In this document: one piece after another, positions 3,095 to 25,568 of the stretch
Layout of the letters: the number at the start of each line of letters is the position of its first letter
Position numbering within the stretch: the stretch's first letter is position 1
From: Bacteroidia bacterium
Lineage (GTDB): Bacteria; Bacteroidota; Bacteroidia; Bacteroidales; JAPLDU01
Assembly: GCA_026391255.1 (NCBI GenBank)
Contig: JAPLDU010000069.1
Coordinates: forward strand, 367 to 64,366
Direction: 5' to 3'
DNA: 64,000 nt
Notes under the pieces: model-generated
Databases searched by the model: none
What the model was told of the DNA's origin: nothing
What the model saw: the letters and a program-made list of their open reading frames with translations, nothing else
Translations under genes and position numbers: made by a program

Positions 3095-4003
3095 TTAAGT
3101 CGTCATGTTTGGTTTTGCATTAGTAATCTCCTCAACACAATTTGGCGGTCTTTCACTATTGAACTGCATTAAAAACTCACAAACCTTGCTGCCATCATGG
3201 CCTTGTCCATATTGAGGCACAGCGAATCGAAGGGTTCTATCGTTTTCATCATATTCGAAAAGAAGTACGGAATCTATTAAAACAACATCCCTAATTTGAC
3301 CTTGGTCAACTGTGAGATATTGAGCCAATGTCTGTACGCTCACCAAAAAAGTTCGTGTGTTTCCAGCGGCATTCCAATATTTACCACCGTACGATGGATC
3401 GTCAATTTCTTTTCTAAATATAGCTAAATCATCAAGAACGAAAATGCGTACTTTGTGGACAGAGTCAGCATTTCCGAGCGTATGTAGCAGATCCATTCCA
3501 CCAACATTTGTGATAAACCAACTTACTGATTTTCGCTGTATAGTGACGTAACATTTTGCTCTGTCTAGTGCGGTTTTGAGGTGATTTAAATATCGTGACG
3601 GTGAAACTTTGGCAAGTAAAAATAATTGATCGTCTTCAATACTTGCTGCAATAAGATTTGAAATTGTCTCTTTATGGTCTTTTGCTAGCTTGGTCATCTG
3701 GACAATCCTGCTACTTAGCAGAAGTTCTTGTCTGACCTCAACAAGGGCTTGTTCAGCATTAACTAACTTCTCAATTTGAGTCTTAGTTTCTCGAAGTTTG
3801 CTCGAATGGTCTAATAGTACATGCAGTACCACGGCTAACACAAGCGCAAGGAAGAAGTTAGACCACAGTTCAATTACCATAGCATGCGATGAACTTGCTG
3901 CGACGTGGAAAAAGACGTTCACACATAGGATGGCGAAAGCAGGCAAGTATCCTATCAATTTTATTATGCCACTGGGTTGCTGATTATCGTTATTAGTGTT
4001 CAT
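3095..4003 (-). CDS. Cargo membrane protein: two N-terminal TM helices, coiled coil, uncharacterised soluble domain
   Basis: Hydrophobic segments LIGYLPAFAILCVNVFFHV and FFLALVLAVVLHVLL; 302-aa ORF. Confidence 0.6.
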   Translation of the reverse strand: MNTNNDNQQPSGIIKLIGYLPAFAILCVNVFFHVAASSSHAMVIELWSNFFLALVLAVVLHVLLDHSSKLRETKTQIEKLVNAEQALVEVRQELLLSSRIVQMTKLAKDHKETISNLIAASIEDDQLFLLAKVSPSRYLNHLKTALDRAKCYVTIQRKSVSWFITNVGGMDLLHTLGNADSVHKVRIFVLDDLAIFRKEIDDPSYGGKYWNAAGNTRTFLVSVQTLAQYLTVDQGQIRDVVLIDSVLLFEYDENDRTLRFAVPQYGQGHDGSKVCEFLMQFNSERPPNCVEEITNAKPNMTT

Positions 4004-6637: not shown

Positions 6638-7198
6638 TTAAAATATTTCCATTTCTCCAAATGATGCAAACCTCCCATTTCCCTTAGCCATCCCATCAGC
6701 CACCTCTATGATAACGTCCACCTCATGGGCATTCTCGTTTTTGCCCCGGAAGTTACCTTCTTTGGTGGTGTGGTAAATGAAGATAAATGATGTTCGGGGA
6801 TTGTCCTGGCGAAGCTGGCGGAGATAGTCCAGGTCGAAGCCGGCACGGGAAACGCTGTCAATGAATACGAAGTCGTATGCTGATAGGTTGTACGGGACTG
6901 CTTCTGAAACATACAGGTTAGGGTCAATTGCCCTGAGCCGTTCCACTTTTTCCTTCAGGGTGTAACCGAACTTTTCTTCAATGGCACAGTAGAGAACTTT
7001 TCCATGATATTTGGCGAGGTGCTTTGCAAAGTCAATGCAGAGGGTAGATTTGCCGGATTTGGGAAGTCCATAAACCATTGCTGAAAACCCAACGCAGGGA
7101 TCACCGATCAGTTCCCGGTATTTTCCCTGGAGACCGATGGTTTCAAATTGCATCTGGGCAAGACGGGTACTGGAAATAACGCCGGAATCTGCTTTCAC
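6638..7198 (-). CDS. RecA-superfamily (Sms/RadA/KaiC-like) P-loop ATPase; probably the C-terminal part of a -1 frameshift fusion with 7195..8169
   Basis: Walker A GLPKSGKST, Walker B FVFIDS, HTTKEG..RG...AHEVD; weak GTG start; frame is open back to the A9 run at 7237-7245. Confidence 0.8.
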   Translation of the reverse strand: MKADSGVISSTRLAQMQFETIGLQGKYRELIGDPCVGFSAMVYGLPKSGKSTLCIDFAKHLAKYHGKVLYCAIEEKFGYTLKEKVERLRAIDPNLYVSEAVPYNLSAYDFVFIDSVSRAGFDLDYLRQLRQDNPRTSFIFIYHTTKEGNFRGKNENAHEVDVIIEVADGMAKGNGRFASFGEMEIF

Positions 7199-8169
7199 AG
7201 CAGTTTTATCCGTCTGATTTTTGCTACTGGCCGGACTTTTTTTTTACTACCGGCTTTGGCAATCCCCATCAGTCCGTTTAGTTCTGATTTGCTGATCTGT
7301 GGTGATTTGGTTTTTTCAGTCAGGTAATCATTCAGGGCATTGTAGATCAGGTTCAGCTTGTCAGCATAAGGATCATTCTTGATGATCTTCATGTTCTTAA
7401 CTGCTTTGGTAAGCTTGTCAAATAAAACTTTTGCCTTTTCCTTTACCCCGCTTTTACCATGCAGGCTGATATACTGTTTGATGTAGGTTACCGATAACAT
7501 GGTTTTTTCGCTGTAGGCAATCTCATGATACTTAGCCAGGGTGTCTTTGTCAATGGATATTGCAATACTATCACCCATCTTCTGATAACAGGATATAAGC
7601 TGGTCCTGTATGTTCTCAATTTCTTTGGCATACGGGGAGGTCTTCCGGATTCGTTTTTCCAGGATGGCTTTTTGCAGGGTGTTGATAAAAGACAGAATTT
7701 CTTTCTGTGTCCTGGTCTTGCCGTCAAGCAAAACATAACGCCTGATAAAAGCAATCTCAGGTTTTATCTTTTCCACCTTTTCAGCAGTATCCTGTTTCTT
7801 TGCCTTCTTTGCCTTTGGCTGTTTCTTTGGCCTGGCAGGTTTTGAAACTTTTGGTTTCTTTTCCTTTTTCTCAGCCTTCACATTCTTTTCAGGTTTTGCT
7901 TTCGGTTGCCGGCTTTTTTGTTTCGGCTTTTTAACTACCGGTGCAGGAACTTCGCTTTCTTTTTCCGGTTTTACTTCGTTCTTTTCAAGATAGTCATCTA
8001 ATTTTTCCATGTAGGAATCCACCACTCTGCGGATGTTTTCGTTGGAATGATATGCCGACCAGTTGTTTTGTGAAGCTCCTTGTACCAGTTTGTTCCCGTT
8101 TTTCAATGCTTCCGGTAAATCAGAAAAATTGATGCTTCGGGTAACTTCAAAATAATTACTTGTATTCAT
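7195..8169 (-). CDS. Basic, Lys/Pro-rich linker protein of unknown function
   Basis: 324-aa ORF with ATG start, K/P/E-rich central linker, overlaps the ATPase ORF by GTGA. Confidence 0.7.
   Translation of the reverse strand: MNTSNYFEVTRSINFSDLPEALKNGNKLVQGASQNNWSAYHSNENIRRVVDSYMEKLDDYLEKNEVKPEKESEVPAPVVKKPKQKSRQPKAKPEKNVKAEKKEKKPKVSKPARPKKQPKAKKAKKQDTAEKVEKIKPEIAFIRRYVLLDGKTRTQKEILSFINTLQKAILEKRIRKTSPYAKEIENIQDQLISCYQKMGDSIAISIDKDTLAKYHEIAYSEKTMLSVTYIKQYISLHGKSGVKEKAKVLFDKLTKAVKNMKIIKNDPYADKLNLIYNALNDYLTEKTKSPQISKSELNGLMGIAKAGSKKKVRPVAKIRRIKLL
7237..7245 (-). other. A9 slippery run 1 (candidate -1 frameshift or transcriptional slippage site)
   Basis: AGT AAA AAA AAA GTC; the -1 frame reads KKSPASSKNQTDKTAVKADSG... 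into the ATPase and is closed by TAA immediately before the run. Confidence 0.7.
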
Positions 8170-16085: not shown

Positions 16086-16730
16086 TTAGGCTTGCAACTC
16101 AATCAGGCCGTTCACTCCCGTTATTTTCAGGATATAGTTGTACAGTTCGCTACTGACCTGTTTTGCCTGTGCTAAAGTCTCGATAGCAGTTTCGCCTTTT
16201 GGTTTAAAGAAATATCCCCGGTTGTAACGCATGATTACCTTGTCAAGCCTGAGCACTCCATTTTCATCATGCTGATCAATCAGAAGCCCAAGCAGGATAG
16301 AGCCACAGAGGATATTGAACTCAGTGTCTAAAAGATCGTCCTGATATACATAGCAACCATCCGACAGATTATTCATTGATAAAATGCTATCGAGCCTGTC
16401 ATCCAGTACCTTTCTAAGGACAGTCTTTTCATCCTGCGAGAGCCTGTCTTTCTTATATTCTAAGAGAATAGTATCATTGGCTGATTGAGGTTTTAACTGC
16501 ATCAGCCCGGTAGAGCCTGATTTGTTAGCAGCATCTTTAACTCCGCCACTCTCAGCAAAAATGATTGAAATAATAATGGCAGCCGGAACATTGGTTAGCG
16601 TTTCAGCTTGTTTGATCTCATTAAAAAAATCAGAAGCAATACTGCCAAGCTTTTTCTTAATAGACGGAATATCCGTAGTAGGGTAATATCCCTGGTCGGT
16701 AAAGGGAAGGGTGAGTTCAAGATTTGCCAT
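16086..16730 (-). CDS. Lytic transglycosylase (SLT/lysozyme-like), probable endolysin
   Basis: IIFAESGG, STGLMQL, RYNRG motifs. Confidence 0.85.
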   Translation of the reverse strand: MANLELTLPFTDQGYYPTTDIPSIKKKLGSIASDFFNEIKQAETLTNVPAAIIISIIFAESGGVKDAANKSGSTGLMQLKPQSANDTILLEYKKDRLSQDEKTVLRKVLDDRLDSILSMNNLSDGCYVYQDDLLDTEFNILCGSILLGLLIDQHDENGVLRLDKVIMRYNRGYFFKPKGETAIETLAQAKQVSSELYNYILKITGVNGLIELQA

Positions 16731-16732
16731 GA

Positions 16733-16894
16733 TTATTTAAGTTTTTTCCTGTAAATAGTCAGTTTACGGGTCTGTTTAGCCTGCTTTGTTGCTTTTGTAT
16801 CTGCCGGTAGTTTGGCTGAATTATCCTCTTTGGAATAATAATATAGGCCAAGTCCTGACAGGATTACAAGCGGTAATAAGATTTTAGCATTCAT
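16733..16894 (-). CDS. Small membrane protein (53 aa); not in ORF track
   Basis: Hand translation MNAKILLPLVILSGLGLYYYSKEDNSAKLPADTKATKQAKQTRKLTIYRKKLK. Confidence 0.65.
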   Translation of the reverse strand: MNAKILLPLVILSGLGLYYYSKEDNSAKLPADTKATKQAKQTRKLTIYRKKLK

Positions 16895-16895
16895 T

Positions 16896-17486
16896 TTAAT
16901 TAATGATTTCAATGTCCCTGCAATACACGATCTTTGAGTTCGGGTTTTTGGAAGTGATCACCTGTTGAAGTTTACGACGGGAAAATATCCAGAGCCACTT
17001 ATGGTAACGGTCGCCACGGTAGACAAGCTGTATCAGACTGTCGGTTGAATGAATGGTGACTTTCTGTGTGTCGTTAATAGCAATCCCTTTTACTGAGTAG
17101 AACTTGTCCTGGTAATTAAACACTTTTACCTTTACTGTATCCTTGATTATACTGTCTCTCAGGGTACTGACAATCTCCTTATCCTGGTGAACTACCGTTT
17201 CAGAGTAATGATTGACAAGCCGGGGACTTACCTTTAAGTTTTCGATCTCCTTTTTTACTTCAGGAAACAAAACACTGACCTCATGGTATTTTAGCTCCAT
17301 TGCATCAGCTTTAGCAGCCAATAGCTTATTTTTCGTCTGGTAATAGGTGACTGATGTCCGGGAGACTTTGAGGGAATTTTCAAGTCGTGCAATTTCCTTT
17401 TCCTTCTTGAAATACAGCCGTGTACTGACTATAGTTGATATGACCAGTAAAAGGAAGATCATGGGTAAAAAATATCTGATTTTCAT
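16896..17486 (-). CDS. Putative spanin/Rz-like lysis protein
   Basis: N-terminal TM, coiled coil, C-terminal KWLWIFSRRK; lies between a holin-like gene and an SLT. Confidence 0.5.
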   Translation of the reverse strand: MKIRYFLPMIFLLLVISTIVSTRLYFKKEKEIARLENSLKVSRTSVTYYQTKNKLLAAKADAMELKYHEVSVLFPEVKKEIENLKVSPRLVNHYSETVVHQDKEIVSTLRDSIIKDTVKVKVFNYQDKFYSVKGIAINDTQKVTIHSTDSLIQLVYRGDRYHKWLWIFSRRKLQQVITSKNPNSKIVYCRDIEIIN

Positions 17487-17539
17487 TGTTTAAGTTTTAT
17501 TACTTTCATTGTCCATTGTCAATTGTCAATTGTACATTA

Positions 17540-17716
17540 TCATTTCTTGTCATGGTCTTTTGCCAGTATCAGTCCGACTCCTCCGCTGATCCCTATCATT
17601 GCTTCTGTCCAGCTAATGTTTTTGACAAACACACTGACAACTGAGGCAATAATGATAAAACCACCAAACATGCTGGTCTTGATGCTTCTTCCTGATTTGT
17701 TTTTCCTTGTATCCAT
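17540..17716 (-). CDS. Small two-TM holin-like protein (58 aa); not in ORF track
   Basis: Hand translation MDTRKNKSGRSIKTSMFGGFIIIASVVSVFVKNISWTEAMIGISGGVGLILAKDHDKK. Confidence 0.6.
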   Translation of the reverse strand: MDTRKNKSGRSIKTSMFGGFIIIASVVSVFVKNISWTEAMIGISGGVGLILAKDHDKK

Positions 17717-17761: not shown

Positions 17762-18502
17762 TTATGTAGTCTGATCCACAAAAACACTCATTGTAAGATT
17801 CTTTGGTGTTCCGCTGACAGATAATACGGTCAGCATAAGTTGATCTCCATCGGTTATGACCAGACTATCAAATGTTTTACTATCCTTTAAAGGTCGGATG
17901 TCAATCTCCGCATTCATTATTGAAAAGGTATCCTTGCATGAGTTTGCCACAATAAAGTATTTGTTCTTAAACAGGCTGTCCCATTCCTGTGAGTTTCCGG
18001 AACCGGTGAACTGTATTAACTGACCGTTAGTGAAGCCATGATTAGCTGCTGTGACAATACACTTTGCAGAACGTGTGATTGCCGATACGTTTTTACCCCC
18101 GGTGACAAAATACCCTGATTTATAATCAGTAGTAAGCTGGGAGGTATCTACATCACCAAAAGTCAGGTAGTTACTGCCACAGCTTAAAGTGGCAATGATA
18201 TTGGTTCCACTGCTAATTTGGTAAAAACAGACTGCAGGCGTTGCACTCATCCATGAAGGGATGCTGAAAAAAACAGGATTGATGTAATCCGTGTCACCCG
18301 AGGCGACACGGATTTCTCCACGTACTGTGAAGTGTACACCAATCCTTTGAACCATTTGACCGACAAGGGCAAGTTTTGATTCGTCATAGGAAGATTTATC
18401 ATACCAACCATCTGACTTTGGAACCAGCTTGCGGTAGCCGGGTGACGGCTCAGAAGCGGAGCTGACCTCCCTGTGTTCTTTCTGTATAAAAACCTTATTC
18501 AT
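17762..18502 (-). CDS. Virion structural/spike-like protein
   Basis: Beta-rich; segment ITRSAKCIVTAANHGFTNGQLIQFTG resembles modules seen in phage structural proteins. Confidence 0.5.
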   Translation of the reverse strand: MNKVFIQKEHREVSSASEPSPGYRKLVPKSDGWYDKSSYDESKLALVGQMVQRIGVHFTVRGEIRVASGDTDYINPVFFSIPSWMSATPAVCFYQISSGTNIIATLSCGSNYLTFGDVDTSQLTTDYKSGYFVTGGKNVSAITRSAKCIVTAANHGFTNGQLIQFTGSGNSQEWDSLFKNKYFIVANSCKDTFSIMNAEIDIRPLKDSKTFDSLVITDGDQLMLTVLSVSGTPKNLTMSVFVDQTT

Positions 18503-18517
18503 TGAAATTTGATAAGA

Positions 18518-19789
18518 TTAGCCTGCTACTACTGCTTTGAATGAACCGGTGGGATAAGCCGGGTTGAAGTTAACGGTGAACCTGTTGGTCGGATCTGTTC
18601 CTGCTTTCGTTATGTTTGCCTCGAATTCTTCTTCTGTATTACCGTCAAAAAGCATGATGGACAGATCAGAAAGGGTTTTTCCGAGGTTGTGGATCACATC
18701 AAAAGAAGCGGTTGAACCATTGGTTGGTACGGTGATCACCCTCTTAATCGGGAAGTTCACAACGCTGAGAGGGGTAAGGGCTGTACGGTTGTCCGATTTT
18801 GCTTCGGCTACAGCCTGGGTAGCCAGCATGGTATAACCCTTTAGAGTTTCAGTAGCCTGTTCCAGGTTGCTCTGGATGATAAACCAGTTAGCACCGACGG
18901 TTGCCTGGTTACCTGCAACAGATGCATCCACCGAACAGATAATTGTATCGCCCACATCGACGTTTGCACCTGCTGCACCACCGATTTTACCTGCCACAGT
19001 GACCTTGTAGGTATGACCAGCATCGGCAGCCGGGTAGTTTGGATTGGCAGAGCAGTCCAGTCCGCCTTTCAGCACCATAGCATCGTTTGCGCTAAGAACT
19101 GCATCGATTGCCGAGCGGACTGCTTTTTCAGTTGCAAAATCAACATCAGTTGCAGTGGCAGCATTGCGGACAGTTGTCTGTACTCCGAAGCCGTCAACAA
19201 TGGCATCCCCGTTTGCACCTGACCATTTGGGAACTTTACCATCTGTTGATGAAGCGGCCTTCTTGACCTGGGCATCATTGGTCACATTGTTCAGGGAAAG
19301 CAAAGATTTTGCCTGTGCGGGAGTCAAATCAGCGGGAGCTGCTGCCCCGGCATTGTTATTCCCCTTGATCGTGTTAGCGGGCATATTGGCCAGCTTCGTG
19401 TTGTCCACATTGTTTTTCAGGTAGTCCGTACCTTCAACGGCTGGCCCGGCTACTCCGTTTGCATCAGTCTTGACAAGTCCGGCGCCACCGGCATAGTCTT
19501 TTGCAGAGCGATCTGCTCCGGCACTGACAACAAGGGTGTTCTGTGCAGCGGAAGCCGTAGCCCTGGTGATCATGTTTACCACACCGGGAATATCCGCAGA
19601 ACTTGCAAGGATAATAACCGACGTGCCATTGTAGTACTTGAGTTTGTGATCTGTGATGTTTTCCCAGATCAAACCTTCTGTTAAGGCTGCACCCGATGGG
19701 TCTGCTGCCAACTTGTGAATGACTGCATTCTTAAGTTCATTCTTGTTTAAATCTATCGGTAGATAGAATTGTTTTGGATTAATTGCCAT
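18518..19789 (-). CDS. Fibre/spike protein
   Basis: Ala/Gly/Thr-rich; N-terminal DLNKNELKNAVIHKL..P...EGLIW; ATETLKG fibre-type repeat; C-terminal HNLG domain. Confidence 0.65.
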   Translation of the reverse strand: MAINPKQFYLPIDLNKNELKNAVIHKLAADPSGAALTEGLIWENITDHKLKYYNGTSVIILASSADIPGVVNMITRATASAAQNTLVVSAGADRSAKDYAGGAGLVKTDANGVAGPAVEGTDYLKNNVDNTKLANMPANTIKGNNNAGAAAPADLTPAQAKSLLSLNNVTNDAQVKKAASSTDGKVPKWSGANGDAIVDGFGVQTTVRNAATATDVDFATEKAVRSAIDAVLSANDAMVLKGGLDCSANPNYPAADAGHTYKVTVAGKIGGAAGANVDVGDTIICSVDASVAGNQATVGANWFIIQSNLEQATETLKGYTMLATQAVAEAKSDNRTALTPLSVVNFPIKRVITVPTNGSTASFDVIHNLGKTLSDLSIMLFDGNTEEEFEANITKAGTDPTNRFTVNFNPAYPTGSFKAVVAG

Positions 19790-19863
19790 AAGTTTAAAGT
19801 TTTAAGTGTTAAGTTATTAAGTGTTAAGAAGAATTTAATTCGTAAATCGTAATTTGTAAATCG

Positions 19864-20313
19864 TCAATTGATAATTATTGTTCCTGACATAACTTCAGAA
19901 AAGCCAATGGTGACGGTGTTGTGGTTTATCAGTTGTACATCGGCTTCAACCGGGTTGCCAACTGTGTTCAGTACCCTCACGTTTACCAACCTGTCTTGAT
20001 TATGTTCAATTTGAATCATTGTTTGATTTTCAAATGGATATTCTAAAGGTGTATTGTTCAGAATGACTTCTTCCCAATTTTGAGGTGTTAGCGGATCGGA
20101 GATGTTCACTAATCTGTACATTTTCCCGTCTGATTCTGTACAAACCAGCATGTATAGCTCCAGCCTCTGTGGTTTGATCCCGTCTCTTTCGGTTATATCT
20201 GTTACCGTTCTGTATCCTCCTTTGCCCCAGATGGCAAGGTGTGACGGGTACACATCCTCCGACGAATAGGGAACGACCGGGGCTGCTATGTTTACCCCCT
20301 GGATTAGTGGCAT
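19864..20313 (-). CDS. Small fibre-associated protein
   Basis: GKGGYRTV..ITERD.I...R head-like segment; C-terminal IEHNQ...VEADV...NTVTIGF domain similar to the end of 18518..19789. Confidence 0.55.
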   Translation of the reverse strand: MPLIQGVNIAAPVVPYSSEDVYPSHLAIWGKGGYRTVTDITERDGIKPQRLELYMLVCTESDGKMYRLVNISDPLTPQNWEEVILNNTPLEYPFENQTMIQIEHNQDRLVNVRVLNTVGNPVEADVQLINHNTVTIGFSEVMSGTIIIN

Positions 20314-20319
20314 GGTTCA

Positions 20320-21063
20320 TTAATTGATGATATTGATATTGACACTTGAACCAGTCTGGTAGCCGGTGTTGAATAGTTTGTAAGCCCTTATTATCCCGAA
20401 TTCATCGGTGATTGTGACATCAGTCATAGTGTAACTTGAGAAATCAAAGCTTCCGTTTTTCACAGACTGCGGGTTACCATACGAGGCAGGGTAAAGGATA
20501 TATATATACTTTCCACCAGTGCAATTGTAATCGTGGTTTTCTGCTTTTGATGAGGCAAGATGTTTGTCAGAGATTAGTTCTTCTGCATAGTCCTTTTTAA
20601 TAGTCAACCGGTTAATCAAATCAACAGGTGTCAAAAAGCTTGCTCCATAGTAATTGGCTTGTTTCCAATTTACTGACACGCTTGCCTGTGCTGTTTTTCC
20701 TGCTTTATCTGTTACCGTGAGAAGGAATGTCTTGTCTTCATCCTGGACAAGTCGCCCGGCGAATGTCCCAGTCTGGCTGCCCCCTGTCACAGGGATAGAT
20801 TGTCCGTCTATGTCAATACTGGTAATAGGTTCACTACCTTCTGTCACCGACCAGTATAAATTAACATCCAGGTCAGGATTACCAATTTCCTTTTCTCCGC
20901 CTCCAATAAGTAAAGCCACCGGAGGCTTACCGGGATAGAAATAACCTTCCAGGAACTCTGACACTGTTTTTCCACCTATCGTAACAACCGGTATCCCCGA
21001 ACGTGTCGTTGGGCGGTCACTGTCAAAATCTGCGCTGTCATCAATTTTTATTACAATTTCCAT
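20320..21063 (-). CDS. Structural protein with Ig/PKD-like beta domain
   Basis: TFLLTVTDKAGKTAQASVSVNW; beta-rich. Confidence 0.5.
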   Translation of the reverse strand: MEIVIKIDDSADFDSDRPTTRSGIPVVTIGGKTVSEFLEGYFYPGKPPVALLIGGGEKEIGNPDLDVNLYWSVTEGSEPITSIDIDGQSIPVTGGSQTGTFAGRLVQDEDKTFLLTVTDKAGKTAQASVSVNWKQANYYGASFLTPVDLINRLTIKKDYAEELISDKHLASSKAENHDYNCTGGKYIYILYPASYGNPQSVKNGSFDFSSYTMTDVTITDEFGIIRAYKLFNTGYQTGSSVNINIIN

Positions 21064-21131
21064 TTTAGTTTATTTTAATTTGTTATACAGATATCTTGCT
21101 CCAAATCCTATTAAAATCAGCCCTCCGATGC

Positions 21132-21704
21132 TTAACTCGTACTTTTTTTTTCCACAATAAATTGTAGCAGGGCAGCCGGTACTCTTTTTAACAGGTATTG
21201 TTTGAACTCTGCAACACTGATCTTTCCGTCCTGGTTAAAATCAATGGCTGAGTTTTGTTTTGCCACAGCCTGTGCCGGTATGCGAGAAGTCTGGAAGATA
21301 AAGTCATCGGGTTTACCGATTGCAGCCGGAAAGAATGTAACCAGGTATAGGTCCTGGAAGCTCTTGATCTTACCCGTGTAGCTTTTGAAGTATTGGTACA
21401 CGTAATCAAGTTGTTCAACGGCGCTCATGCCATACAGATCACTGTTTGAAGTGCCCATTCCTTTGGCCGTATCAGGCATGAACTGCAAAAGACCGGTTGC
21501 CCGGTTATTGCAACGTGTCAGATCATCGTCCGGGTCACCGGGTTGTTTGTTTACAGCCTGTGCATTCAGGGAACTCTCCATGTACATGACCATCATCAGC
21601 CAGTCAGGGTTGATTGATAGCAGGTTGCAGATATTGCTGACCTTGGCTTCAAATTCCGAGGAGTTTTCTCCTTTGTTTGTTTTAAGATTATCAATTAGTA
21701 TCAT
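21132..21704 (-). CDS. Lysozyme-like lytic transglycosylase; a -1 shift at A9 would extend it to 21070 with a TM anchor
   Basis: MYMESSLNAQAVN...ATGLLQFMP motifs; ends ...IVEKKSTS directly after the A9 run. Confidence 0.85.
   Translation of the reverse strand: MILIDNLKTNKGENSSEFEAKVSNICNLLSINPDWLMMVMYMESSLNAQAVNKQPGDPDDDLTRCNNRATGLLQFMPDTAKGMGTSNSDLYGMSAVEQLDYVYQYFKSYTGKIKSFQDLYLVTFFPAAIGKPDDFIFQTSRIPAQAVAKQNSAIDFNQDGKISVAEFKQYLLKRVPAALLQFIVEKKSTS
21143..21151 (-). other. A9 slippery run 2
   Basis: GTG GAA AAA AAA AGT; the -1 frame gives KYELSIGGLILIGFGARYLYNKLK then TAA at 21070-21072, 6 nt before the next ATG. Confidence 0.7.
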
Positions 21705-21733: not shown

Positions 21734-22618
21734 TTAGTTATTTCTGTTTTTTGCAAGACTTAATATTTTTCCGGCAGCAAATATTCCAAGTCCGCCAAGA
21801 ATCAGGGTTTTCATAGGAAGACCAAAAAAGCTAAACTCCTGGTCAACTTTCCCCTGGTTATAGGCATCGTCCACCTGCTTATTAAGATCATCTTTTATCT
21901 TTTGTGCCTGTTCGGGTGATACCTTTGACAGAGCCTGTTCAAGATCGGCACTGACTTTCAGGTCAACCACCGAATCTTCATAATCCGGTTTGAAAGCATA
22001 ATAAATGGTAACTGCCAGTCCAAGGGCAACAACTGCCCCGATAGCAATAGGGATCAAAATTGGCGTTCCTATGCTGTCAACCATCCGGCTCCACTTATCA
22101 GCCAGCCATTCGTATCCTTTTTTTAGTCCGTCCTGCCACTTGATCAGGGTAGAATCTTTAAGTTTCTGTTGCCGTTTTGAGTACCTGGCAGTTAAATCGT
22201 TCAGTTTTGTTTCATGACTGCTCATATCTTTGCCCTGCTTTTTCAGCCGGTCAATCATCTCGGCAGATTTTAGCATGGAGTGATAGGTCTGATTGTCATT
22301 TTTTACCAGGTTCTCAAGCAGTGACCCGGCCTCCTTATCATCTACCTTATCATTGGGAGAATCAGGTGGCGGATCAGTAAGGCGCACAACATCCTCACGC
22401 ATGTAGCCATAGCTTTTGCCATTGATAGTCTGGTATAGGTTTACTTGTAACCAGTTGCCATCATCCATTGCCAGGTAAGCGCCGGATGTCCTGCCTGCTG
22501 CCTGGTTCCCGCTGACAGCGGTCACCAGCTCGCTTGATTGCGAAGGCAGGCTGCGGACATTGGATGTGCCTGATTTGGCATAAGCCAGCTTATTAGTATA
22601 TTTCTTATCAAAGCTCAT
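21734..22618 (-). CDS. Membrane protein with N-terminal SH3b-like domain, coiled coil and two TM segments
   Basis: NVRSLPS...GNWLQVNL..GKSYGYMREDVV; TM PILIPIAIGAVVALGLAVTIYYAF and TLILGGLGIFAAGKIL. Confidence 0.6.
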   Translation of the reverse strand: MSFDKKYTNKLAYAKSGTSNVRSLPSQSSELVTAVSGNQAAGRTSGAYLAMDDGNWLQVNLYQTINGKSYGYMREDVVRLTDPPPDSPNDKVDDKEAGSLLENLVKNDNQTYHSMLKSAEMIDRLKKQGKDMSSHETKLNDLTARYSKRQQKLKDSTLIKWQDGLKKGYEWLADKWSRMVDSIGTPILIPIAIGAVVALGLAVTIYYAFKPDYEDSVVDLKVSADLEQALSKVSPEQAQKIKDDLNKQVDDAYNQGKVDQEFSFFGLPMKTLILGGLGIFAAGKILSLAKNRNN

Positions 22619-23665: not shown

Positions 23666-24004
23666 TTATAAAGGTTGTACCTGTATGAAAATAAATTCCT
23701 GTGCAATGTCTGGGTTGCTTGTCTCAATGTCAATGTTCCCGGTAAAATCACGGGATAGCAACTCGCTGTCCCCTTTTTTGTAAGTTGTAATGCAGTTATC
23801 TGAATAAATCGTGGCAGTGTCTTCAATGGTCATGCTGCGCACGAAATAGAGTTCGTTGAATGCCTGCAAACGAATGAAACCTCCTTCGACCGTCACCTTC
23901 TTTTCTTCCCAGTGAAAGCGGTCCGTGGAAAATACCTCCCTGATGCGCTGGCTGATATATTCCTGCAGGACATTGAAATCATTGATATGGATACTGATTT
24001 CCAT
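23666..24004 (-). CDS. Small beta-rich putative structural protein
   Basis: 112 aa, alternating hydrophobic pattern, overlaps the upstream gene. Confidence 0.45.
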   Translation of the reverse strand: MEISIHINDFNVLQEYISQRIREVFSTDRFHWEEKKVTVEGGFIRLQAFNELYFVRSMTIEDTATIYSDNCITTYKKGDSELLSRDFTGNIDIETSNPDIAQEFIFIQVQPL

Positions 24005-24387
24005 TATTTCTTCAGGAATTTAAGGTAAATTGTAAGGCGGTATGGTACGAAGTCTCTTTTTTCAGCCAGTGTGGATAAGTCCCGGTAAAACCCGGTCATG
24101 ATATTTCTATTATTGATTGGTTCATTTAATGGCAGAAACTTAACTGGGCAGGGTGGTAAATCTTTCGTATATCCGACATGGTAGTTGACCGGGTGCAGGT
24201 GGCGATTACAAAATTCAAGGCTGATCTCCCCGACATGCTCAATATCCGAATCAAAGTTCCCTTGAGCGGAAAAATGAACCCCGGTCAGCTTGCAAAGACT
24301 GGTAGGCAGTTTTTCCCTGATCTCGATTACCTGGCCTATAGAAATTACCTGGTAAGGGATTGCAATTCGTTTCTTTACTCGCAGCAT
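24004..24387 (-). CDS. Small beta-rich protein, paralogue of 24375..24782 (candidate single jelly-roll capsid/penton protein)
   Basis: VISIGQVIEI / LTGVHFS / GFYRD / VPYRLTIYLK align by eye with VTSAGQSVKV / VRGLRVS / IKYVD / FPYDAVLYLK. Confidence 0.5.
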   Translation of the reverse strand: MLRVKKRIAIPYQVISIGQVIEIREKLPTSLCKLTGVHFSAQGNFDSDIEHVGEISLEFCNRHLHPVNYHVGYTKDLPPCPVKFLPLNEPINNRNIMTGFYRDLSTLAEKRDFVPYRLTIYLKFLKK

Positions 24388-24782
24388 TGGTTTGGTTTTT
24401 TAACAGTGGGAGGGTTCTTTAACTTGAGATAAAGCACAGCATCATAGGGAAAGGTAACCCCGTCGGTAAATCCACCATCCACGTACTTTATCTCCACTTT
24501 ACTATCGGCTGCATTGACAAACTCATCCTGGTCAAACTCGAAGTACTCGTTTATTTTTGCAGATTGGTTGCAGAAAAGCAGTTTGGTTTCATATTCGTCC
24601 GGAAAGATTTCTTCCTCGTCAATCCTCAGTCCGATGGTACTTGCAAAGTGGTGACGGTCATCAGAAATGCTGACACGCAGTCCCCTGACTTCAGCAAACA
24701 GCATGTTGGTGTTTGCCGAGACTTTGACCGATTGACCGGCAGAAGTGACACGTATCTTGATGGGCTGGTATTTTGTGTTCAT
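24375..24782 (-). CDS. Small beta-rich protein (candidate single jelly-roll capsid/penton protein)
   Basis: 135 aa of short alternating-pattern strands; paralogous to the next gene. Confidence 0.5.
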   Translation of the reverse strand: MNTKYQPIKIRVTSAGQSVKVSANTNMLFAEVRGLRVSISDDRHHFASTIGLRIDEEEIFPDEYETKLLFCNQSAKINEYFEFDQDEFVNAADSKVEIKYVDGGFTDGVTFPYDAVLYLKLKNPPTVKKPNQCCE

Positions 24783-24863: not shown

Positions 24864-25568
24864 TTAATATTTGGTAACAGAAGTGCCCATAAGTATAGCC
24901 TTCAGGAAGAAGTTTGCAGGGGTATTAGTTCCCCATTCGATGTTCATTTCCATGGCCTGCTGGTCAAAGATCATCTTCGGGTTGTCAAGTGTAAAGCAGC
25001 CTTTACGTGCTTTCATATCCGTTGTGTTGAATACTTCGCATGACATAGCCGGGATAATGGTCGTCCCGTTGGCACGGAATTCAAACTCACCGTTACGGAT
25101 AATTTCCGGGATAATGTCGAAATTGACATCGAAAATGGTCTGCGTACCGGTTGCTGTACCTGCAAGCAGAATGATCGAGTGAAGCAGCATGATATTGCCT
25201 TTTTCAAGCTTTGCACTTGAGATGTTTGACACGCCAACAACCTTGTTGTCATCGTCACGCAGCATCTTTGCAATTTTGCTCAGGGAGATGTTCTTTGAAA
25301 GGTAAATTGCCACATTAACGGCCTGTAGCGCCTTGCTGGCAATTCCGGCCTGTGTCTCACGGGGTAGCATCGGTATGCGTTTTTCGAACTCACCACGGGA
25401 GTTGTTCGAAGGTATAACGGTAATGGGTTTTTGTTGGGACTGTATCTTTTTAAGAAATTTTTTACGGTCAGCAACAGGGGCAGCTTCAAGAGCTCCCAGA
25501 AGTTCTTCTTCATTCACTGCTCCAAGCAGGTTGTATTCGCTTAATGCGATTTCTCCTAATGTTATCAT
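24864..25568 (-). CDS. Candidate major capsid protein (helical N-terminus plus beta-sandwich)
   Basis: 234 aa; C-terminal ~140 aa has a beta-strand pattern (IMLLHSIILLAG, GEFEFRANG, MEMNIEW, FLKAILMG); fold is inferred only. Confidence 0.45.
   Translation of the reverse strand: MITLGEIALSEYNLLGAVNEEELLGALEAAPVADRKKFLKKIQSQQKPITVIPSNNSRGEFEKRIPMLPRETQAGIASKALQAVNVAIYLSKNISLSKIAKMLRDDDNKVVGVSNISSAKLEKGNIMLLHSIILLAGTATGTQTIFDVNFDIIPEIIRNGEFEFRANGTTIIPAMSCEVFNTTDMKARKGCFTLDNPKMIFDQQAMEMNIEWGTNTPANFFLKAILMGTSVTKY

What the first reader, a model, noticed from the sequence alone, without database searches (positions are those of the whole stretch)
21070..21151. Second A9 run: a -1 shift adds a transmembrane anchor to the lysozyme-like protein
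The ORF ends EKKSTS right after an A9GT run, the same A9GT as at 7237. The -1 frame gives KYELSIGGLILIGFGARYLYNKLK*, a hydrophobic helix plus basic tail like those ending neighbouring proteins. It fills the 68-bp gap to within 6 nt of the next ATG. These are the only two A9 runs I found on the coding strand of the operon, and both have a meaningful -1 extension. Inference: one gene yields a soluble and a membrane-anchored transglycosylase (for example a virion entry enzyme), so recoding may be a recurring stoichiometry device in this element.
Basis: partly seen in the sequence, partly recalled or inferred. Interest (0 to 1): 0.75.

Follow-up and report, generated by a model that had tools for sequence, protein, structure and literature searches.

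The report
Conserved A9 slip adds lysin membrane anchor
A wall-cutting enzyme gene of a virus-like element in Bacteroidota carries a run of nine A's that is kept in dozens of distant relatives. A one-base backward slip there adds a membrane anchor, so one gene probably makes both a free and a membrane-bound enzyme.

Summary
The minus-strand gene 21132-21704 encodes a 190-aa SLT lytic transglycosylase with an EF-hand-like loop. It ends EKKSTS* just after an A9 run (21143-21151). The -1 frame reads KKKYELSIGGLILIGFGARYLYNKLK* and stops 6 nt before the next ATG.

This is not a sequencing error. Of 124 homologous loci, 56 (40 distinct tails) keep an A9/A10 run at this point, a 0-frame stop soon after it, and a conserved Gly-rich transmembrane helix plus basic tail in the -1 frame. 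Third-codon-position variation moves into the -1 frame after the run. No start codon is available for the tail. Nine distinct relatives carry the same tail in frame, including the virion structural lytic protein P14 of the membrane-containing phage FLiP.

No conserved RNA structure follows the run, and nine A's are kept in all three codon phases. This favours RNA-polymerase slippage over ribosomal -1 frameshifting. Either would give a major soluble and a minor membrane-anchored enzyme.

The second A9 (7237) is also a recurrent recoding junction. Relatives are in frame, split at an A-run, or split at G_GGA_AAG plus a hairpin.

I found no published description.

The parts
21132..21704 (-). 0-frame ORF, 190 aa: SLT lytic transglycosylase domain with an EF-hand-like Ca-binding loop (DFNQDGKISVAEF), ending EKKSTS*. 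This is the predicted soluble isoform.
   Evidence: Pfam SLT PF01464, 30.2 bits against a cut-off of 21.3, plus weak EF-hand hits. PHROG matches fall on the C-terminal part of baseplate-hub and tail-lysin families. There are 217 homologues, nearly all 190-197 aa. E43-S44 and D155/N157/D159/G160/E166 are invariant.
21143..21151 (-). A9 run (T9 on the + strand), the proposed slippage site. 0-frame context: G AAA AAA AAG T.
   Evidence: GAAAAAAAAAG is invariant in 16 aligned loci. A9/A10 is kept in 56 of 124 loci and in codon phases 0, 1 and 2. Elsewhere in the same genes, 32% of Lys codons are AAG and 28% of Glu codons are GAG.
21070..21150 (-). -1-frame extension KKKYELSIGGLILIGFGARYLYNKLK*: linker, Gly-rich transmembrane helix, aromatic and basic tail. 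It is reached only after a -1 shift or the insertion of one A in the mRNA.
   Evidence: Homologous tails occur in the -1 frame of 55 other loci. Codon-position variability after the run is 0.35/0.31/0.66 in the -1 frame. The recoded products are colinear with in-frame tails of FLiP gp14 and others.
21132..21134 (-). 0-frame stop codon (TAA), three codons after the run. It lies inside the Leu-Ser codons of the -1 frame.
   Evidence: In relatives the 0 frame stops 1-21 codons after the last codon of the run, and in most loci after 2-3.
20320..21063 (-). Next gene (247 aa, weak PKD-like hit). Its ATG lies 6 nt after the stop of the -1 extension.
   Evidence: In most relatives the stop of the extension overlaps the next gene's ATG (gap -4).
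21734..22618 (-). Upstream 294-aa membrane protein with two TM segments. The C-terminal one has the same Gly-rich helix and basic tail design.
24864..25568 (-). 234-aa jelly-roll, capsid-like protein (411 homologues; the 120 listed are 55-80% identical). It gives context for a non-tailed virus-like element.
   Evidence: 411 homologues. AF2 model with pLDDT 83.8. Foldseek best hit is the major capsid protein of Sulfolobus polyhedral virus 1 (6oj0_A, E 1.4e-4, prob 1.0), followed by double-jelly-roll capsid proteins.
16086..17716 (-). Candidate lysis cassette: a 58-aa two-helix membrane protein (17540-17716), a DUF6549 protein with N-terminal TM (16896-17486) and a second SLT-domain protein (16086-16730).
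   Evidence: In most relatives the DUF6549 gene directly follows the recoded SLT gene.
7237..7245 (-). Second A9 run. A -1 shift fuses the 324-aa basic protein (7195-8169) to the RecA-like ATPase (6638-7198).
   Evidence: The search found 1203 homologues; those listed as full-length matches are about 474-537 aa (one of 668 aa) and cover 97-100% of the fused query. The eight sequences printed read continuously across the junction. In-frame A9/A10 occurs at the same point in L127, L128 and L130. The same -1 split occurs in G269 (A9) and G086 (A10). G_GGA_AAG-TAA plus a hairpin occurs in G169 and G039.

Best explanation
The A9 run near the 3' end of the SLT gene is a conserved, selected recoding site.

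Most transcripts and ribosomes read straight through. They terminate three codons later and give a soluble 190-aa lytic transglycosylase.

A minority shift into the -1 frame. The most likely route is that RNA polymerase slips on the 9-bp A:T hybrid and adds one A to the mRNA. The alternative is a tandem ribosomal slip on A_AAA_AAA. The shifted product is a 211-aa protein in which the same enzyme carries a linker, a Gly-rich transmembrane helix and a basic tail.

The anchored form is the counterpart of the in-frame anchored enzyme P14 of phage FLiP. I infer that it sits in a membrane of the particle or of the infected cell, while the soluble form acts freely. The run thereby fixes a ratio of the two forms from one gene.

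Shown here: the run, the frames, their conservation, coding selection on the -1 tail, the lack of a start codon, the in-frame homologues and the lack of a conserved RNA structure. Inferred: that both proteins are made, their ratio, the polymerase rather than ribosome mechanism, and where each form acts.
For: 1. Conservation. Of 124 loci with an SLT homologue, 56 (40 distinct tail sequences) have A9, or A10 through a G-to-A change of the next base, near the end of the gene. They also have a 0-frame stop 1-21 codons after the last codon of the run (most often 2-3) and a TM helix plus basic tail in the -1 frame. They come from independent assemblies from many sources, including the 73-76% identical nearest relatives and a clade of 19-23 kb IMG/VR viral contigs.

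2. Protein ends. 119 of 120 cluster representatives end in [EQ]KK followed by 1-6 further residues. None of the 120 listed cluster representatives is long enough to carry the tail in frame; the few longer ones have N-terminal extensions.

3. Coding selection. After the run, pairwise variability by codon position is 0.35/0.31/0.66 in the -1 frame. This is the same pattern as the 0 frame upstream (0.45/0.28/0.61).

4. Selection on the nucleotides. GAAAAAAAAAG is invariant across 16 loci that are 52-62% identical at protein level. Yet AAG makes up 32% of Lys codons and GAG 28% of Glu codons elsewhere in these genes. The run is kept in codon phases 0, 1 and 2.

5. No ATG, GTG or TTG in the tail frame in the window and in most loci.

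6. The recoded products align colinearly with in-frame homologues through the EF-hand loop, linker, TM helix and basic tail. These include FLiP gp14, a virion structural protein (PMC7654751).

7. No conserved RNA structure follows the run (RNAalifold finds 0 pairs; window fold z = -0.21). Runs of 9 A/T are documented efficient RNA-polymerase slippage sites in bacteria (PMC5009743).

8. The assembly does not break genes at A-runs as a rule. More than 20 A>=9 runs lie in frame inside long intact ORFs of the same genome.
Against: Production of either form, and their ratio, is therefore unproven.

Two loci have A8 with the tail in the +1 frame (L007, L016). This shows indel variation at the run, or assembly error.

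The window's own helix is a little less hydrophobic than its relatives', with Arg where they have Trp (my estimate by hand: KD15 about 1.4, against 1.6-2.5 computed for relatives).

A C-terminal anchor without a signal peptide leaves the topology of the enzyme domain unexplained.

The mechanism rests on indirect arguments only: run length, phase independence and absence of structure.
Confidence: 0.8

Rival explanations
1. The recoding is real, but ribosomes make it by -1 programmed frameshifting on A_AAA_AAA / A_AAA_AAG, not RNA polymerase. The products are the same. This is a sub-alternative inside the best explanation, and its probability is counted within it.
For: A valid X_XXY_YYZ heptamer is present in every codon phase of a 9-A run. 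Relatives of the second recoded gene of this element family use a canonical ribosomal signal, G_GGA_AAG plus hairpin. So -1 frameshifting is used in this kind of element.
Against: Seven A's would be enough, yet nine or ten are kept in 56 of 58 recoded loci whatever the phase. No conserved downstream structure was found, and the window fold is no better than shuffles. Runs of 9 A/T are known efficient RNA-polymerase slippage sites (PMC5009743).
Confidence: 0.3
2. The run is a DNA-level phase-variation switch. It expands and contracts during replication (A9 to A10 and back), so that clones either make only the soluble or only the anchored enzyme.
For: Homopolymers are mutable. Two loci carry A8 (L007, L016). 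One distant relative (L042) has an A9 with the tail in frame.
Against: Among the 58 recoded loci and the 120 listed protein cluster representatives of the closer relatives, none is in the 'ON' state that one extra A would create. All A10 cases arise from a G-to-A substitution that keeps the -1 relation. A switch should be seen in both states.
Confidence: 0.07
3. The hydrophobic tail is a separate small membrane protein, made by its own initiation or re-initiation after the SLT stop. It is not a fusion.
For: In the IMG/VR viral-contig clade and in L105 an ATG lies just after the run (KKKSMGLE..., KKSSMTT...). Small membrane proteins are common in lysis cassettes.
Against: The window and most loci have no ATG, GTG or TTG in that frame before the helix. 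The residues right after the run ([FWY]-E-L-G) are conserved in the -1 frame. The whole recoded product is colinear with single-ORF homologues.
Confidence: 0.04
4. It is a sequencing or assembly error or a dead gene. The real gene has A10 and a plain in-frame anchor, or the tail is decaying.
For: Homopolymers are error-prone. The same genome has a few A9/A10 runs at apparent frame breaks (C61, C117 and the 7237 site).
Against: The same A9 and -1 arrangement appears in dozens of independent assemblies made by different projects and assemblers (contig names indicate MEGAHIT, SPAdes and ONT among them). The tail is under purifying selection in the -1 frame. More than 20 other A>=9 runs in this genome are in frame.
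Confidence: 0.02

Closest known systems
Transcriptional slippage at A/T runs in bacteria (Thermus thermophilus dnaX; Shigella mxiE and other T3SS genes; IS-element transposases)
   Same: A run of about nine A/T in the coding strand. Two overlapping frames. One added base in part of the mRNAs changes the C-terminal part. No RNA structure is needed. The run is conserved among homologues (PMC5009743, PMC3711429).
   Different: A different gene family and host phylum (Bacteroidota virus-like elements). Here the shifted product gains a membrane anchor. No RNA evidence is available here.
Ebola virus GP gene editing at an A7 run (named only)
   Same: Polymerase stuttering on an A-run switches the product from a soluble to a transmembrane-anchored glycoprotein, with the unedited soluble form in the majority (PMC5009743).
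   Different: That is an RNA-dependent polymerase of an animal virus with an unrelated protein. The resemblance is functional, not evolutionary.
Phage lambda gpG/gpGT and the conserved -1 frameshift of tail assembly chaperones
   Same: A virus structural module uses a -1 shift near the 3' end of a gene to make a fixed minority of a C-terminally extended protein.
   Different: Lambda uses G_GGA_AAG and ribosomal slippage. The proteins are chaperones of tailed phages, not enzymes, and no membrane anchor is involved. This description of lambda is from my own knowledge and was not tested here.
FLiP P14 (gp14), the virion-associated lytic transglycosylase of an internal-membrane phage (Finnlakeviridae); functionally also PRD1 P7
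   Same: Homologous enzyme: 33.5% identity over 170 aa, E 5e-24. Same order of SLT domain, EF-hand-like loop, linker, C-terminal TM helix and basic tail. It is a structural protein of a membrane-containing virion (PMC7654751).
   Different: FLiP encodes the anchor in frame with no A-run, so only the anchored form is expected. No other FLiP protein has a detectable relative in the window. PRD1 P7 is recalled from memory and was not tested here.
E. coli copA -1 frameshift (soluble CopA(Z) from a membrane-protein gene)
   Same: One gene gives a soluble and a membrane form through a -1 shift.
   Different: There the shift truncates a membrane protein to give a soluble domain. Here the shift adds the anchor. 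From my own knowledge, not tested.

Membership tests
Programmed transcriptional slippage genes (A/T-run type) | Homopolymer run of about 9 A/T on the coding strand inside the gene | tested here: met
   A9 at 21143-21151. A9/A10 in 56 of 124 homologous loci.
Programmed transcriptional slippage genes (A/T-run type) | The alternative frame opened by one added base encodes a meaningful, conserved extension | tested here: met
   The -1 tail is conserved, with coding-type codon-position variability (0.35/0.31/0.66), and is colinear with in-frame homologues.
Programmed transcriptional slippage genes (A/T-run type) | The run is conserved at nucleotide level beyond what the amino acids require | tested here: met
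   GAAAAAAAAAG is invariant in 16 loci. Synonymous AAG (32%) and GAG (28%) are used elsewhere in the same genes. The run is kept in three codon phases.
Programmed transcriptional slippage genes (A/T-run type) | mRNA population heterogeneous in run length from homogeneous DNA | not testable with these tools
-1 programmed ribosomal frameshifting | Slippery heptamer X_XXY_YYZ in the 0-frame phase | tested here: met
   gaA AAA AAA in the window. A 9-A run contains such a heptamer in any phase.
-1 programmed ribosomal frameshifting | Conserved stimulator (downstream hairpin or pseudoknot, or upstream SD-like element) | tested here: not met
   RNAalifold on 16 loci found 0 pairs. The window fold is -7.8 kcal/mol with z = -0.21. 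An upstream SD-like element was not searched for. By contrast, the G_GGA_AAG sites in relatives of the ATPase gene do have hairpins (z = -3.4 and -2.6).
SLT / family-1 lytic transglycosylases (PF01464) | Profile match above the curated threshold | tested here: met
   30.2 bits against a cut-off of 21.3.
SLT / family-1 lytic transglycosylases (PF01464) | Catalytic Glu (E-S motif) conserved | tested here: met
   E43 and S44 are invariant in 27 aligned homologues. Enzyme activity was not tested.
Virion membrane-anchored lytic enzymes of internal-membrane phages (FLiP P14 type) | Homology to a proven structural lytic protein with a C-terminal TM helix | tested here: met
   tblastn against FLiP gp14 gives E 5e-24. 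The gp14 tail ...SWFALVALAIAGGFYVVNQKEIHRQLKI is in frame. P14 is a structural protein (PMC7654751). In the window the helix is reached only through the -1 frame.
Virion membrane-anchored lytic enzymes of internal-membrane phages (FLiP P14 type) | The element is a membrane-containing, jelly-roll-capsid virus and the protein is in the particle | tested here: inconclusive
   The model of the 234-aa protein matches the SPV1 capsid protein and double-jelly-roll capsid proteins at E 1e-4 to 1e-3, with TM-scores of only 0.2-0.5. The 127-aa protein is a beta-sandwich with weak matches only. Several module proteins have TM helices. No particle data exist.
Phase-variable contingency loci (slipped-strand mispairing) | Both ON and OFF run lengths found among strains or sequences | tested here: not met
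   No in-frame (insertion-type A10) allele was found among the 58 recoded loci or the 120 listed cluster representatives. Only two A8 variants were seen.

The most novel reading that the evidence does not exclude
A widespread lineage of non-tailed, jelly-roll-capsid, membrane-containing proviruses of Bacteroidota, with a relative clade among IMG/VR viral contigs, uses RNA-polymerase slippage on A9 runs as a general dosing device in at least two genes. In the lysin gene it would make, from one ORF, the soluble enzyme used for lysis and a minority of tail-anchored enzyme built into the virion membrane for entry. In the ATPase gene the same junction has been re-solved several times: in frame, by an A-run, or by G_GGA_AAG plus a hairpin. 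That would show selection on the ratio itself.
Probability: 0.3. Interest if true: 0.8.

Novelty: new variant of a known kind. Interest (0 to 1): 0.68.

Why it matters
Recoding by homopolymer slippage is known, but well-supported conserved cases in bacteria and their viruses are few. None that I could find concerns a cell-wall hydrolase that gains a membrane anchor, or Bacteroidota elements.

This case gives a clean, testable example of a soluble versus membrane-anchored isoform switch, a bacterial parallel to A-run editing in some animal viruses. It means that gene callers systematically mis-annotate this family as a 190-aa soluble protein followed by a roughly 70-100-nt 'gap'. It also offers a handle on how a poorly known group of virus-like elements, found widely in Bacteroidota metagenome-assembled genomes, sets protein ratios. 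The co-occurrence of a second recoded junction in the same element family, solved by different signals in different lineages, makes it a natural system for comparing transcriptional and ribosomal routes.

Tried and rejected

- Conserved RNA structure after the run: none found.

- FLiP-like identity of the whole element: only gp14 has a detectable relative in the window, so the element is not a finnlakevirus.

- The 127-aa protein as a sphaerolipovirus-type capsid protein: Foldseek gave only weak, generic jelly-roll matches (best E 1.6e-3, TM-score <= 0.46). Left open.

- IMG/VR scan for the ATPase family: no relatives.

- My first reading of site 7237 as a private one-base loss or an assembly error, because the homologues found looked like single in-frame proteins. 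I revised this after finding the same -1 split in G269 and G086, and G_GGA_AAG-hairpin junctions in G169 and G039.

- Independent small ORF for the tail: rejected for most loci because there is no start codon.

- Literature searches for a described frameshift in a lytic transglycosylase or endolysin with a membrane anchor, and for DUF6549: nothing relevant.

Full report
**What is there**

The genes around the finding lie on the minus strand, in a long operon running from about 28.0 kb down to 6.6 kb. ORF 21132-21704 encodes a 190-aa protein. It has an SLT lytic-transglycosylase domain (PF01464, 30.2 bits against a cut-off of 21.3) and an EF-hand-like loop. It matches the C-terminal parts of phage baseplate-hub and tail-lysin families in PHROGs.

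Its 3' end reads gtg gaa aaa aaa agt acg agt taa, which is V E K K S T S stop. The A9 run is at 21143-21151. Read from 21150, the -1 frame gives KKKYELSIGGLILIGFGARYLYNKLK and stops at 21070-21072, 6 nt before the ATG of the next gene at 21063.

The window has only three A9 runs, against 11 +/- 4 expected.

**Is it an error?**

I used comparison with relatives instead.

- The protein has 217 relatives in the large protein collection. Nearly all are 190-197 aa, and 119 of the 120 listed end in [EQ]KK plus a few residues. That odd conservation of a C-terminus suggested a conserved nucleotide string.
- I fetched 56 loci from bacterial genomes and 68 from IMG/VR. Of the 124 loci, 55 plus the window have an A9 run, or A10 where the following G has become A. 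In all of them the 0 frame stops 1-21 codons after the last codon of the run (most often 2-3), and the -1 frame encodes a Gly-rich hydrophobic helix followed by aromatic and basic residues. An example is KKKFELGIGGFILLGMGAWYLYNKLKKKKKGKRK. There are 40 distinct tails.
- In most loci the stop of the tail overlaps the ATG of the next gene.
- The nearest relatives (73-76% identical, from other metagenomes) show the same arrangement.
- Two loci have A8, with the tail then in the +1 frame.
- None of the recoded loci or of the 120 listed protein cluster representatives has the tail put in frame by an extra A.
- In the window's own genome more than 20 runs of nine or more A's lie in frame inside long intact ORFs. 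The assembly therefore does not systematically miscount such runs.

**Is the tail translated as part of the enzyme?**

Four results say yes.

1. After the run, variability by codon position is 0.35/0.31/0.66 in the -1 frame. This is the signature of a coding frame and matches the 0 frame upstream (0.45/0.28/0.61).
2. The tail frame has no ATG, GTG or TTG before the helix in the window and in most loci. The residues directly after the run ([FWY]-E-L-G) are conserved.
3. Nine distinct relatives carry a homologous tail in the 0 frame, and the recoded products align colinearly with them. One of these is gp14 of Flavobacterium phage FLiP. It has an SLT domain, an EF-hand-like loop and then ...SWFALVALAIAGGFYVVNQKEIHRQLKI. 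It is a proven structural protein of a virion with an internal membrane, predicted to help penetrate peptidoglycan (PMC7654751).
4. The run is conserved beyond what the amino acids need. GAAAAAAAAAG is invariant in 16 loci, while the same genes use AAG for 32% of Lys and GAG for 28% of Glu elsewhere. The run also occurs in all three codon phases: E-K-K-S, [VLI]-K-K-K and K-K-K.

On a tree of the enzyme domain the recoded state falls in about six clusters, interspersed with in-frame and tail-less lineages. A single origin is not excluded.

**Mechanism**

Either a ribosomal tandem slip on A_AAA_AAA or an extra A added by RNA polymerase gives the same 211-aa product. I favour the polymerase at about 60:40, for three reasons.

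- Nine or ten A's are kept although seven would serve a ribosome.
- The length is kept regardless of codon phase.
- There is no conserved structure after the run. RNAalifold finds no pairs, and the window's fold is no better than shuffled sequence.

Runs of nine A/T are documented efficient slippage sites for bacterial RNA polymerase (PMC5009743). The other frames end at once (EKKSTS* here; EKKV* in many relatives if one A is lost), so every product except the -1 one is a soluble enzyme.

The likely outcome is a major soluble and a minor tail-anchored transglycosylase. Which membrane the anchored form sits in, and its topology, are inferred only. A C-terminal anchor without a signal peptide does not by itself put the enzyme domain outside the cell membrane.

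**Context**

The module around the gene has several proteins with similar Gly-rich helices and basic tails: the 598-aa transglutaminase-like protein, a 158-aa protein and the 294-aa protein.

The 234-aa protein at 24864-25568 has 411 homologues, and the 120 listed are 55-80% identical. Its model (pLDDT 83.8) best matches the capsid protein of the membrane-containing Sulfolobus polyhedral virus 1 (E 1.4e-4), followed by double-jelly-roll capsid proteins. The 127-aa protein is an eight-stranded beta-sandwich with only weak matches.

No terminase, portal or tail genes were seen. Downstream lie a holin-like protein, a DUF6549 protein, a second SLT protein, then methyltransferases, RadC, an SNF2 helicase and the ATPase. 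The element is therefore probably a non-tailed, jelly-roll-capsid provirus with a membrane, but this rests on moderate evidence. In most relatives the DUF6549 gene directly follows the recoded gene. The window has four extra genes in between.

**The second A9 (7237)**

A -1 shift there fuses the 324-aa basic protein to the RecA-like ATPase. The homologue search found 1203 proteins. Those listed as full-length matches are about 474-537 aa and cover 97-100% of the fused query, and the eight printed read continuously across the junction. This at first suggested a private one-base loss.

Looking at DNA changed that view.

- Relatives that are in frame carry an A9 or A10 at the same point (L127 C-A9-GT, L128 A10, L130 A9).
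- Two other genomes have the same -1 split at A9 or A10 (G269, G086).
- Distant relatives (G169 twice, G039) have G_GGA_AAG followed by TAA and a stable hairpin, with the ATPase in the -1 frame. The folds are -16.4 and -19.8 kcal/mol, with z = -3.4 and -2.6.

That junction is thus also a recurrent recoding point. Whether the window's allele is itself functional is not shown.

**Novelty**

Searches of the literature found nothing on recoding in lytic transglycosylases or endolysins, on membrane-anchor addition by slippage in phages, or on Bacteroidota elements. Earlier notes of this scan describe two other phage wall hydrolases split at A9 runs, with the anchor first and the enzyme after the shift. 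I did not test those. I rate this a new variant of a known kind of mechanism. The comparative support is strong, but there is no molecular proof yet.

Noticed in passing
window 6638-8169 (-); L127, L128, L130, L132/L154, L133/L155, L145, L157, L149: The junction between the basic N-terminal domain and the RecA-like ATPase is solved in at least four ways among homologues. (1) In frame with A9/A10. (2) In frame without a run. (3) A -1 split at A9/A10, as in the window, G269 and G086. (4) A -1 split at G_GGA_AAG-TAA followed 5 nt later by a 10-11-bp hairpin, in G169 (twice) and G039.
   Followed up: partly
L042 (Spirosomataceae MAG), about 3520-3560: A distant SLT homologue has an A9 run with the TM tail in the 0 frame. 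Both shifted frames stop at once (KKKP*, KKKALT*). This would be the reverse default: anchored form major, soluble forms by slippage. It is a single case and could be an assembly artefact.
   Followed up: no
window 24864-25568 (-) and 24004-24782 (-): The 234-aa protein models as a jelly-roll with its best PDB match to the SPV1 capsid protein. The paralogous 127- and 135-aa proteins are small eight-stranded beta-sandwiches. Together with many TM proteins and no tail or terminase genes, this suggests a non-tailed membrane-containing provirus.
   Followed up: partly
window 17762-21063 (-): Four genes (247, 149, 423 and 246 aa, with weak tail-fibre or structural PHROG hits) lie between the recoded SLT gene and the DUF6549 gene. 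They are absent from that position in most related loci, where DUF6549 follows directly. This may be a variable host-recognition module.
   Followed up: no
L060-L078, L083 (IMG/VR contigs of 19-23 kb): A tight clade of viral contigs carries the same recoded gene with an A10 run in codon phase 2 and the tail KKKSMGLESGFNVFVIAGSIICAGIILWYIFKRDNDD. Here an ATG follows the run, so separate initiation cannot be excluded for this clade.
   Followed up: partly
genome contigs C61 (- strand, offset 26184 from the contig's 3' end) and C117 (- strand, offset 52553 from the contig's 3' end): Two A10 runs in the same genome sit where a long ORF ends (220 and 198 codons upstream) and another frame opens for 254 and 245 codons. 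These could be further frameshifted or recoded genes, or homopolymer errors. The C61 run is adjacent to an N in the scaffold.
   Followed up: no
L001-L028 downstream of the SLT gene: In most loci the stop codon of the -1 tail overlaps the ATG of the next gene (ATGA-type overlap, gap -4), whereas the 0-frame stop leaves a gap of about 70-100 nt. Ribosomes in the -1 frame could therefore be coupled to translation of the next gene.
   Followed up: no
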